From the human T2T-CHM13v2.0 reference genome, Homo sapiens, in the NCBI RefSeq assembly GCF_009914755.1, contig NC_060929.1: 64,000 bases of DNA; one strand, given 5' to 3'. The notes under the pieces were generated by a model. That model did no database searches. It was not told the origin of the DNA and saw only the letters and a list, made by a program, of their open reading frames with translations. Every line of letters begins with the position of its first letter. Position 1 is the stretch's first letter. Position numbers and translations under genes: made by a program. This document shows, piece by piece, positions 42,353 through 43,439 of this stretch.

Positions 42353-42442
42353 AGAAAAGTGACGGCATTTACATCCTAAATCTGAAGAATCTAATTCTGT
42401 TGGCAGCTTGTACCATTGTTGCCATTGAAAACCCTTCTGATT

Positions 42443-42577
42443 CTGCAGCCAATTAAGCCGACTGAGTTCCTTTCCTCATGGGGGCCCAGTGTGCAATCGC
42501 TGCAAACAGCAGCTTCCTTGGTAGTATATGCAGCCTGTTTATTGTACGGGTTGCTCTACGGGACCTTGGAGACAGGC
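42443..42577 (+). ncRNA. SNORA70: SNORA70 (U70) H/ACA snoRNA retrocopy
   Basis: 135 nt 'ctgcagccaattaagccgactgagttcctttcctcatgggg...gggaccttggagacaggc' matches SNORA70; H box ACAGCA 42506-42511 and ACA box 42572-42574 three nt from the end. Expression unknown. Confidence 0.9.
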
Positions 42578-43012
42578 TTTTCAGATGGATGTTCATGTTT
42601 CTGACTTTGCATTACCCCAGTGTAGGCTCCGGACAGGCATGCGAGGTGCCTTTGGAAAGCCCCAGGGCACTGTGGCCAGGGTTCACATTGGCCAAGTTAT
42701 CATGTCCATCTGTACCAAGCTGCAGAACAAGGAGCATGTGATAGAAGCCCTGCACAGGGCCAAGTTCAAGTTTCCTGGCCGCCAGAAGATCCACATCTCA
42801 AAGAAGTGGGGCTTCATCAAGTTCAATGCCAATGAATTTGAGGACATGGTGGCTGAGAAGCGGCTCATCCTAGATGGCTGTGGGGTAAAGTACATCCCCA
42901 GTCGTGGCCTTCTGGACAAGTGGCGGGCCCTGCACTCACGAGGGCTTCCACTGTGCTGCCGCCCTCTTAATATTCACCAATACATTCTACTTCCTGTCCA
43001 AAAAAAAAAAAA
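42578..43012 (+). pseudogene. RPL10: Partially processed RPL10 pseudogene (3' part of the snoRNA intron plus the last two exons spliced plus poly(A))
   Basis: Intron tail 42578-42625 ending AG; then '[26 protein letters not shown]...[19 protein letters not shown]...LDKWRALHS'; exon join at 42788/42789; poly(A) 43000-43012; TSD aaaacccttctgat at 42428-42441 and 43015-43028. Symbol is the parent gene. Confidence 0.95.
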
Positions 43013-43439
43013 TTAAAACCCTTCTGATGTCAGTCTCATGTCCTCCCGGAATCCTGGCCAGCGGGCTGAGCTGAGCTTTGCTGCTGCCACAGGAGCCACT
43101 CCTATTGCTGGCCACTTCACCCCTGGAACCTTCATTAACCAGGTCCAGGCAGCCTTCTGGGAGCTGCGTCTGTTGGTAGATACTGATCCCAGGGTGGCCA
43201 CTGGCCTCTCACAGCAGCATCTCATGATAACCTACCTACCATACCTCTGTGGAACACAGGTTCTCCTCTGCGCTGTGTGGATATTTCCATCCCATGCAAC
43301 AAGGGAGCTCACTCGGGGGTCTGATGTGGGGAATGCTGGCTCAGGAAGTTCTGCACATGCCTGGCACTGTCTCCTGTGAACACCCATTAGAGATCATGCC
43401 TGATCTCTGCTTCTACAGAGATCCCGAAGAGATGGAAAA

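What the first reader, a model, noticed from the sequence alone, without database searches (positions are those of the whole stretch)
42428..43028. Fossil of a 5'-snoRNA-capped, polyadenylated RPL10 RNA (SNORA70 + intron tail + spliced exons)
Seen: between 14-bp TSDs the insert starts within ~1 nt of the mature SNORA70 5' end. It contains the whole 135-nt snoRNA with H and ACA boxes, then 48 nt of unspliced intron with CTGAC branch-like site and AG acceptor, a 163-nt exon joined directly to the last exon, and poly(A). Established: SNORA70 lies in the penultimate RPL10 intron; snoRNA-plus-host-exon retrocopies and box C/D snoRNA-capped SPA RNAs have been described, so the class is not wholly new. 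Inference: random 5' truncation is unlikely to stop at the snoRNA end. The template was probably a stable germline RNA whose 5' end was protected by an H/ACA snoRNP after intron retention and 5'-3' trimming, i.e. an H/ACA-type SPA that could reflect RPL10 autoregulation or an alternative snoRNA maturation route.
Basis: partly seen in the sequence, partly recalled or inferred. Interest (0 to 1): 0.8.

Follow-up and report, generated by a model that had tools for sequence, protein, structure and literature searches.

The report
Known SNORA70–RPL10 type-3 snoRNA retrocopy
This is an old, dead L1-made copy of an RPL10 RNA fragment that began at the SNORA70 snoRNA; the element, its class, the proposed mechanism and the living RNA are all already published, so it is ordinary.

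Summary
Between two 14-bp target-site duplications lies one extra T, then a complete SNORA70 (135 nt), the whole 48-nt downstream intron tail, RPL10 exon 6 joined to exon 7, and a poly(A) tail. The insert sits inside the older pseudogene RPSAP71.

In my survey of T2T-CHM13, 18 clear and 3 probable independent copies start within about 10 nt of snoRNA nt 1. Eight are truncated inside the snoRNA. None carries the 339 nt of upstream intron.

None of this is new.
- RefSeq annotates the element as SNORA70J and RPL10P8.
- Luo & Li (NAR 2007) appear to list it as U70f.
- Weber (2006) defined the class as "Type-3 snoRNA retroposon". He counted 30 of 42 RPL10 pseudogenes as such and proposed cleavage, then 5'-3' trimming to the snoRNA.
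- Rambaldelli et al. (2025) detected the living RPL10-SNORA70 "3'-snoRT" RNA.

The autoregulation idea remains untested.

What remains is small: a truncation hotspot at snoRNA nt 43-48, and a link between fossils and 3'-snoRTs that I did not find in print. Interest is low.

The parts
41920..44018 (+). RPSAP71, the older RPSA processed pseudogene that received the insertion (it also holds two Alu insertions)
   Evidence: Annotation supplied with the finding. Flank 43015-43436 matches 40 other loci over its full length at 79-85% identity. Both flanks map colinearly onto the chr19 RPSA pseudogene L069.
42428..42441 (+). 5' copy of the 14-bp target-site duplication AAAACCCTTCTGAT; the preceding bases TTG give an L1-endonuclease-like TTG|AAAA site
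   Evidence: A 14-nt overlap of the two flanks on the empty paralogous site L069.
42442..42442 (+). One T, identical to the parental base at -1 of the snoRNA. It is either a 1-nt 5' extension of the template or an untemplated base.
42443..42577 (+). Complete SNORA70 copy (RefSeq SNORA70J), with ACAGCA at 42506-42511 and ACA at 42572-42574
   Evidence: Rfam RF00156, 154.9 bits, model 1-135, no non-canonical pair flagged.
42578..42625 (+). The entire 48-nt part of RPL10 intron 5 downstream of the snoRNA, unspliced, with CTGAC at 42601-42605 and AG at 42624-42625
   Evidence: Ungapped alignment to the chrX parent.
42626..42788 (+). RPL10 penultimate exon (163 nt)
   Evidence: Translation matches uL16.
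42789..43000 (+). RPL10 last exon joined directly to the previous exon. The stop codon is changed to CGA at 42939-42941 and the poly(A) signal to AATACA at 42979-42984.
43001..43014 (+). Poly(A) tail (12 A) followed by TT
   Evidence: It starts at the parental cleavage site.
43015..43028 (+). 3' copy of the target-site duplication

Best explanation
The element is a Type-3 snoRNA retroposon in Weber's sense: a dead, L1-mediated retrocopy annotated as SNORA70J plus RPL10P8.

Proposed route (the steps are inferred unless marked as shown under the evidence):
1. An RPL10 transcript kept intron 5, which hosts SNORA70, but spliced out the last intron and was polyadenylated at the normal site.
2. Everything upstream of the snoRNA was removed by 5'-3' degradation.
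3. Degradation stopped at the assembled H/ACA snoRNP, leaving an RNA of about 560 nt with a snoRNA 5' end and a poly(A) tail.
4. L1 endonuclease and reverse transcriptase nicked a TTG|AAAA site inside the older pseudogene RPSAP71, primed on the poly(A) tail and copied the RNA to its very 5' end. This produced a 14-bp target-site duplication.
5. The insertion dates to tens of millions of years ago (5.8% non-CpG divergence from the parent). It now has no demonstrable function. The snoRNA part is still structurally intact but lies in no annotated host intron.
For: Shown:
- Anatomy, spliced junction, poly(A) and target-site duplication.
- Genome-wide starts: 18 clear and 3 probable independent copies start at about -10 to +5. 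Eight are truncated inside the snoRNA, at nt 33-57. 0 of 31 loci show homology to the 339 nt of upstream intron or to exon 5 within 700 nt upstream.
- P about 7e-26 against uniform 5' ends.
- The truncated starts lie at the 3' edges of the two helices of the 5' hairpin (nt 48/47 and 43). A reverse transcriptase moving 3' to 5' would stall there. The pile-up at nt 1 lies at no such edge, so it fits a template end.
- Intron retention puts a TGA 1 nt into the intron, 338 nt upstream of the snoRNA and ahead of the exon 6/7 junction. The full-length intron-retaining mRNA is therefore a predicted NMD substrate.

Published:
- Weber 2006 (PMC1687206, sections 8 and 14): same class, 30 of 42 RPL10 pseudogenes, and the proposal of cleavage plus exonucleolytic trimming to the snoRNA 5' end.
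- Rambaldelli 2025 (PMC12152556, section 3.1): in long reads, 3'-snoRT 5' ends have a median 2 nt upstream of H/ACA snoRNAs. Passages of section 3.3: RPL10-SNORA70 was chosen as the H/ACA example and confirmed by ddPCR.
- Zacchini 2022 (PMC9394076, abstract and passages): dyskerin, NHP2 and GAR1 bind cytoplasmic H/ACA snoRTs as shorter 3' fragments.
Against: - The fossil cannot show whether the template lacked a cap, whether snoRNP proteins were bound, or which nuclease did the trimming (nuclear XRN2 versus cytoplasmic SMG6 plus XRN1).
- Two old copies (L012, perhaps L014) seem to carry 5-10 nt of upstream intron, so trimming was not always exact.
- Three old copies (L022, L058, L063) are called full-length only by eye. 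A shuffle control did not support L058 (61 of 200 shuffles reached the observed score) or L063 (132 of 200), and supported L022 only weakly (6 of 200).
- The genome searches scored only 40 of 50 and 40 of 48 candidates, so all counts are lower bounds.
- Expression of the RNA in the germline, where it must have been to leave heritable copies, is inferred and not shown.
Confidence: 0.95

Rival explanations
1. An ordinary processed pseudogene of a full-length intron-retaining RPL10 mRNA whose 5' end was lost by random L1 5' truncation, which happened to fall at the snoRNA start.
For: L1 retrocopies are often 5' truncated. Eight SNORA70 copies are indeed truncated inside the snoRNA.
Against: At least 18 of 26 securely classified independent copies start within 16 nt of the snoRNA start, and none starts upstream (P about 7e-26 and 8e-18). 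The truncated ones cluster at helix edges inside the snoRNA, not at nt 1.
Confidence: 0.02
2. The template was a capped primary transcript started by a cryptic promoter at or just upstream of SNORA70 inside RPL10 intron 5, not a trimmed decay product.
For: Genomic fossils and oligo-dT long reads cannot tell a capped from an uncapped 5' end. A few vertebrate snoRNAs are independently transcribed (recalled).
Against: The start coincides to within 1-2 nt with the mature snoRNA end, which is set by exonuclease trimming against the snoRNP. The same behaviour is seen for many different snoRNAs in different host genes (Weber 2006 section 14; Rambaldelli 2025 section 3.1). For NOP56-SNORD86 a decay origin is reported, as cited in those papers; I did not read that paper.
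Confidence: 0.03
3. A chimeric retrocopy made when L1 reverse transcriptase switched template from RPL10 mRNA to free SNORA70, or a DNA-level duplication of the RPL10 3' region.
For: Template-switch chimeras with small RNAs are known (Weber 2006 discusses them; Luo & Li list some snoRNA 'chimera' entries).
Against: The 48-nt intron tail is colinear and ungapped between snoRNA and exon 6, exactly as in the gene. That excludes a switch between two mature RNAs. The removed last intron, the poly(A) tail and the 14-bp duplication exclude DNA duplication.
Confidence: 0.005

Closest known systems
Type-3 snoRNA retroposons (snoRTs) of U70/SNORA70, Weber 2006, PLoS Genet 2:e205 (PMC1687206)
   Same: Everything matches: start at the mature snoRNA 5' end, entire downstream intron, processed last two RPL10 exons, poly(A), and a duplication of about 14 bp at an L1-type site. 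Weber counts 18 entire and 12 partial copies; my count is 21 (18 clear, 3 probable) and 8.
   Different: Nothing of substance. This copy is nested in an RPSA pseudogene. I could not open Weber's Figure S3 (old .doc) to see whether this locus is shown.
H/ACA retrogene U70f of Luo & Li, NAR 35:559 (PMC1802619, Table 1)
   Same: Intergenic, chr5 at 170.7 Mb in the old assembly, 92.8% identity, retrogene with poly(A). The only other chr5 entry (87.7 Mb) corresponds to L015. Their class 'Figure 1D' (U70m-like, exon-containing) describes this architecture.
   Different: Identity with the window's copy is inferred from chromosome, position near NPM1 and percent identity, not from sequence.
3'-snoRTs (snoRNA-retaining transcripts, short form): RPL10-SNORA70 in Rambaldelli 2025 (PMC12152556); EIF4A1-SNORA67 in Zacchini 2022 (PMC9394076)
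   Same: Polyadenylated host-gene 3' fragment whose 5' end lies at, or about 2 nt upstream of, an H/ACA snoRNA in a retained intron. This is the RNA the fossil implies. Here the start is at -1.
   Different: Those are living RNAs in somatic and cancer cells. The fossil shows only that such an RNA was reverse-transcribed in the germline lineage. In the EIF4A1 case the 5'-RACE end was at the end of the preceding exon, not at the snoRNA.
SPA lncRNAs of the Prader-Willi locus, and the cytoplasmic cSPA of NOP56-SNORD86 (known to me only from citations, and from recall)
   Same: 5' end protected by a snoRNP against 5'-3' exonuclease, and a 3' poly(A) tail.
   Different: Those have box C/D caps. SPAs arise from a long polycistronic read-through transcript and stay nuclear. 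The RPL10 species has an H/ACA cap and derives from an intron-retaining mRNA.

Membership tests
Type-3 snoRNA retroposon (Weber 2006) | 5' end coincides with the mature snoRNA 5' end (a few extra nt allowed) | tested here: met
   The insert starts 1 nt upstream of Rfam model position 1 and abuts the target-site duplication.
Type-3 snoRNA retroposon (Weber 2006) | Entire intron sequence downstream of the snoRNA is retained | tested here: met
   All 48 nt present, ungapped against the chrX parent.
Type-3 snoRNA retroposon (Weber 2006) | Downstream host exons are spliced and end in poly(A) at the host's cleavage site | tested here: met
   The roughly 75-nt last intron is absent. The tail starts at the parental cleavage site. 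The open 103-aa uL16 frame runs across the junction.
Type-3 snoRNA retroposon (Weber 2006) | Target-site duplication of about 13-16 bp at an L1 endonuclease-like site | tested here: met
   A 14-bp exact duplication, proven against an empty paralogous site. The site is TTG|AAAA, against the consensus TT|AAAA.
Rfam RF00156 SNORA70 (H/ACA snoRNA) | Covariance-model score above the gathering threshold over the full model, with H and ACA boxes | tested here: met
   154.9 bits against 40, model 1-135. The boxes were seen by inspection.
Rfam RF00156 SNORA70 (H/ACA snoRNA) | Expressed, processed, dyskerin-bound functional guide RNA | not testable with these tools
   RefSeq lists NR_145720.1. The copy lies in no annotated host intron. 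Four papers name SNORA70J (listing only). They are expression-signature or review papers by their titles and abstract openings; I did not read them.
3'-snoRT / cSPA-type RNA (as template) | Poly(A)+ host fragment with its 5' end at the snoRNA of a retained intron | tested here: met
   The fossil architecture. The family-wide 5'-end pile-up.
3'-snoRT / cSPA-type RNA (as template) | Uncapped 5' end protected by bound snoRNP proteins; made by decay of the full-length intron-retaining mRNA | not testable with these tools
   Only indirect: a premature TGA lies 1 nt into the retained intron. Binding and decay are published for other snoRTs, not tested here.
SPA lncRNA (Prader-Willi type) | Box C/D snoRNA cap on a long nuclear read-through transcript | tested here: not met
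   The cap is an H/ACA snoRNA and the body is about 420 nt of RPL10 intron tail and exons. It works like an SPA but is not one.

The most novel reading that the evidence does not exclude
The fossil record may say something that the papers I searched do not draw out. Over tens of millions of years the snoRNP-ended RPL10 fragment, which appears to be a minor RNA species, left about 29 heritable copies. The abundant mature RPL10 mRNA left about 9-12. An uncapped, dyskerin-bound, cytoplasmic poly(A)+ 3'-snoRT would then be a privileged L1 template in the germline. That would also answer Weber's open question of how a 'strictly nuclear' snoRNA meets the L1 machinery.

Neither 3'-snoRT paper mentions retroposition (0 hits for six terms each). 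The one review found citing both lines does not link them in the passages I saw.
Probability: 0.4. Interest if true: 0.35.

Novelty: already known. Interest (0 to 1): 0.1.

Why it matters
It matters little as a discovery. The locus is annotated. The class was defined in 2006, with RPL10/U70 as its leading example. The mechanism was proposed then, and the RNA was detected in 2025.

Its value is as a clean, fully resolved example that ties genomic fossils to a living RNA class. The family of about 29 independent insertions is a natural record that the RPL10-SNORA70 3' fragment has existed in the germline lineage, with the same 5' end, for tens of millions of years.

Tried and rejected
- A permissive local alignment of upstream flanks over-extended through gaps and was useless for boundaries. 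I replaced it with a short-word BLAST.
- Rfam hits on truncated copies all report model 1-135, even though BLAST and the target-site duplications show they are truncated. They therefore say nothing about where truncated copies begin.
- A forced global alignment with shuffled controls could not confirm that L058 and L063 keep a degenerate 5' hairpin: 61 and 132 of 200 shuffles scored as well. L022 got 6 of 200. I report these three only as probable.
- DNA duplication and template-switch chimera were considered and rejected (see the rival explanations).
- An alternative reading of the duplication as 16-17 bp (TTGAAAACCC... with a lost G) was considered. The 14-bp reading is kept because the overlap on the empty site is 14 nt.
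- The store of earlier findings was not open.
- Weber's Figure S3 and the supplementary tables of the 2025 paper were not seen. They may show this locus and the exact read-start distribution for RPL10-SNORA70.

Full report
**1. What is in the sequence**

The 14-mer AAAACCCTTCTGAT occurs at 42428-42441 and again at 43015-43028. Between the two copies lie, in order:
- one T at 42442;
- a complete SNORA70 at 42443-42577 (Rfam RF00156, 154.9 bits, model positions 1-135, gathering score 40);
- 48 nt of intron (42578-42625);
- a 163-nt exon (42626-42788);
- a 212-nt last exon (42789-43000);
- twelve A and two T.

I found the chrX parental locus by searching the window's own genome. Against it, window 42442-42788 aligns without a gap at 93.4% (324 of 347). 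Window 42789-43000 aligns at 93.9% (201 of 214). The parental last intron of about 75 nt (GTATGT...CCTTAG) is precisely absent.

The exon part translates without stop or frameshift into 103 residues. These match uL16/RPL10 residues 111-213 at E 4e-61. The stop codon is now CGA and the poly(A) signal is AATACA.

**2. The duplication is a real target-site duplication, and the insertion is nested**

The flanks are RPSA cDNA. The right flank (43015-43436) matches 40 other loci over its full length at 79-85% identity. On an uninterrupted RPSA pseudogene on chr19 (L069), the left flank ends at 366 and the right flank begins at 353. The two flanks therefore overlap by exactly the 14 duplicated bases.

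The host pseudogene is about 15% diverged from its relatives. The insert differs from its parent at 31 of 536 non-CpG sites (5.8%) and 5 of 22 CpG sites. The insert is therefore the younger event. An age of tens of millions of years is my rough inference from recalled primate neutral rates.

**3.

I ran three searches of T2T-CHM13:
- the snoRNA copy (34 matches);
- the intron tail plus exons (44 matches, 40 of 50 candidates scored);
- the parental snoRNA, tail and exon 6 (40 matches, 40 of 48 scored).

Because candidates were capped, all counts are lower bounds. I fetched the loci and aligned each to 6.3 kb of the parental gene. I read the 5' junctions together with the target-site duplications.

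Parental intron 5 is 522 nt: 339 nt upstream of the snoRNA, the 135-nt snoRNA, and 48 nt downstream.

Results, counted as independent insertion events:
- **18 clear full-length copies:** L001 (this one), L002, L004-L016, L024, L062, and one ancient copy multiplied by segmental duplication (L025-L030, L068).
- **Exact boundaries:** 11 of those 18 have a target-site duplication of 10 nt or more ending 0-4 nt before the first parental base. In all 11 the insert starts between -2 and +1, sometimes with 1-2 extra bases.
- **Short 5' extensions:** L012 seems to carry about 10 nt of upstream intron, and L014 perhaps 5.
- **3 probable full-length copies:** L022, L058 and L063 look full-length with a decayed 5' hairpin. 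This rests on short colinear matches that a shuffle control did not secure.
- **8 truncated copies:** L055 at about nt 33-39, L017 at 43, L020 at 43, L066 at about 41-46, L019 at 47-52, L023 at 47, L018 at 48, L021 at 57.
- **No upstream sequence:** in the 700 nt upstream of all 31 loci examined, none has a match with E below 0.01 to the parental upstream intron or exon 5. Four weak, non-colinear hits to that region have E 0.06-0.47. The single strong hit (L066, E 6e-8) is to snoRNA nt 46-97, across an Alu insertion.
- **Spliced and unclassifiable copies:** 9 copies are fully spliced RPL10 pseudogenes (L038, L043, L048, L049, L051, L054, L056, L061, L064). L065 and L067 start too far 3' to be classified.

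Under uniform 5' ends along an intron-retaining mRNA, 18 or more of 26 starts in a 16-nt window has P about 7e-26. Having none upstream has P about 8e-18.

**4. It is all in print**

- **Weber 2006** (PMC1687206; sections 8, 14 and 15 read) defines Type-3 snoRTs exactly this way. He states that 30 of 42 human RPL10 processed pseudogenes are Type-3 U70 snoRTs, 18 entire and 12 partial. He notes that the 5' end coincides with the mature snoRNA apart from a few untemplated bases. [quoted passage not shown]
- **Luo & Li** (PMC1802619; passages and Table 1) list 21 U70 copies. One is U70f: intergenic, chr5 at 170.7 Mb, 92.8% identity. I take this to be the present locus.
- **Rambaldelli et al. 2025** (PMC12152556; abstract and sections 1 and 3.1 read, passages of 3.3) show in nanopore reads that polyadenylated "3'-snoRTs" begin at C/D snoRNAs, or a median 2 nt upstream of H/ACA snoRNAs. 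They picked RPL10-SNORA70 as their H/ACA example and quantified its full-length and 3' forms by ddPCR in six cell lines, tumours and plasma.
- **Zacchini et al. 2022** (PMC9394076; abstract and passages) show dyskerin, NHP2 and GAR1 on cytoplasmic H/ACA snoRTs in the form of shorter 3' fragments.
- **RefSeq** already annotates SNORA70J and RPL10P8.

**5. Mechanism**

The shown parts are the retrocopy hallmarks and the family-wide 5' end. The inferred parts are the absence of a cap, snoRNP protection and the nuclease involved.

One small addition bears on the route. If intron 5 is retained, the reading frame meets TGA one nucleotide into the intron. That is 338 nt upstream of the snoRNA and ahead of the exon 6/7 junction. 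The full-length intron-retaining mRNA is thus a textbook NMD substrate. This fits the translation-dependent decay route that the 2025 paper favours by analogy with NOP56-SNORD86.

**6. The truncated copies**

All eight truncated copies start within nt 33-57, and six start within nt 43-48 (with the ambiguous L019 and L066 starts placed inside that window). None starts in the remaining 126 nt of snoRNA and tail. Simulated P is below 5e-6 and about 1e-5 respectively.

In the predicted fold, nt 45-48 and 38-43 are the 3' strands of the two helices of the 5' hairpin. A reverse transcriptase coming from the 3' side would stall exactly on entering them. A 5'-3' exonuclease would instead stall on the 5' strands. 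This supports Weber's guess of RT arrest. By contrast, it also supports reading the pile-up at nt 1 as a true template end. I did not find the hotspot mentioned in the passages I read.

**7. Verdict**

The residual idea is that snoRNP-ended fragments are privileged L1 templates, and that the fossils are the germline record of 3'-snoRTs. This is plausible and apparently not stated in the papers I searched. It is modest.

Noticed in passing
L017/L039 (chr12:75.66 Mb) versus L002 (chr1:201.24 Mb): The chr12 copy is a second-generation retrocopy. After the RPL10 poly(A) it carries the chr1 copy's own target-site duplication and about 95 nt of chr1 flank. It then has its own poly(A) and its own 12-bp duplication, and it starts at snoRNA nt 43. 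The chr1 copy was therefore transcribed and retroposed again.
   Followed up: partly
Loci L017-L021, L023, L055, L066; snoRNA nt 33-57: All 8 truncated SNORA70 retrocopies begin on the 3' strand of the 5' hairpin, 6 of them at about nt 43-48. This fits L1 reverse transcriptase stalling at helix edges. I did not see it mentioned in the passages of the 2006 and 2007 papers that I read.
   Followed up: partly
Parent L003:1499-1633 versus all copies; window 42444 and 42495: The CHM13 parental SNORA70 has C2 and G53, which pair in the lower stem. By contrast, 17 of 18 full-length copies have T2, and 16 of 18 plus 6 of 7 truncated copies have A53. None has C2 or G53. A control CpG at nt 87-88 shows the mixed TG/CA/CG expected of independent decay. 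The parent therefore seems to have made a compensatory U-A to C-G change after the youngest retrocopy. The Rfam consensus also has u2/a53.
   Followed up: partly
L023 (chr17:30.72 Mb): One copy ends in the intron tail, about 5 nt before the acceptor, followed directly by poly(A) and a short duplication. This is a Type-2 snoRT in Weber's terms (from the excised intron) and is also truncated at nt 47.
   Followed up: no
3' ends of the copies; window 43000: Copies end either at ...TGTCCA (as here) or 4-6 nt further on at ...TGTCCACCTA, matching the parental downstream sequence. RPL10 thus has two neighbouring cleavage sites, both recorded in the fossils.
   Followed up: no
L025-L030, L068 (chr4:135.09 Mb, chr9 pericentromere and 78-79 Mb, chr21:9.5 Mb; also chr13 and chr14 hits): One very old copy (about 68-77% identity) shares the same upstream flank in the copies whose flanks I printed (chr4, chr9:48.07 Mb, chr21). 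It is one retroposition spread by segmental duplication, as Weber described for another snoRT.
   Followed up: partly
Window about 42046-42352 and about 43437-43760: Two Alu elements are inserted in RPSAP71 on either side of the SNORA70/RPL10 insert. For the first, the flanks overlap by 11 nt on the empty paralogous site. This stretch of about 2.1 kb thus records four retroposition events.
   Followed up: partly
L012 (chr16:77.5 Mb): This copy appears to keep about 10 nt of parental intron upstream of the snoRNA, between its duplication and snoRNA nt 1. It also has an Alu inserted just before its poly(A). It may derive from an incompletely trimmed template.
   Followed up: partly
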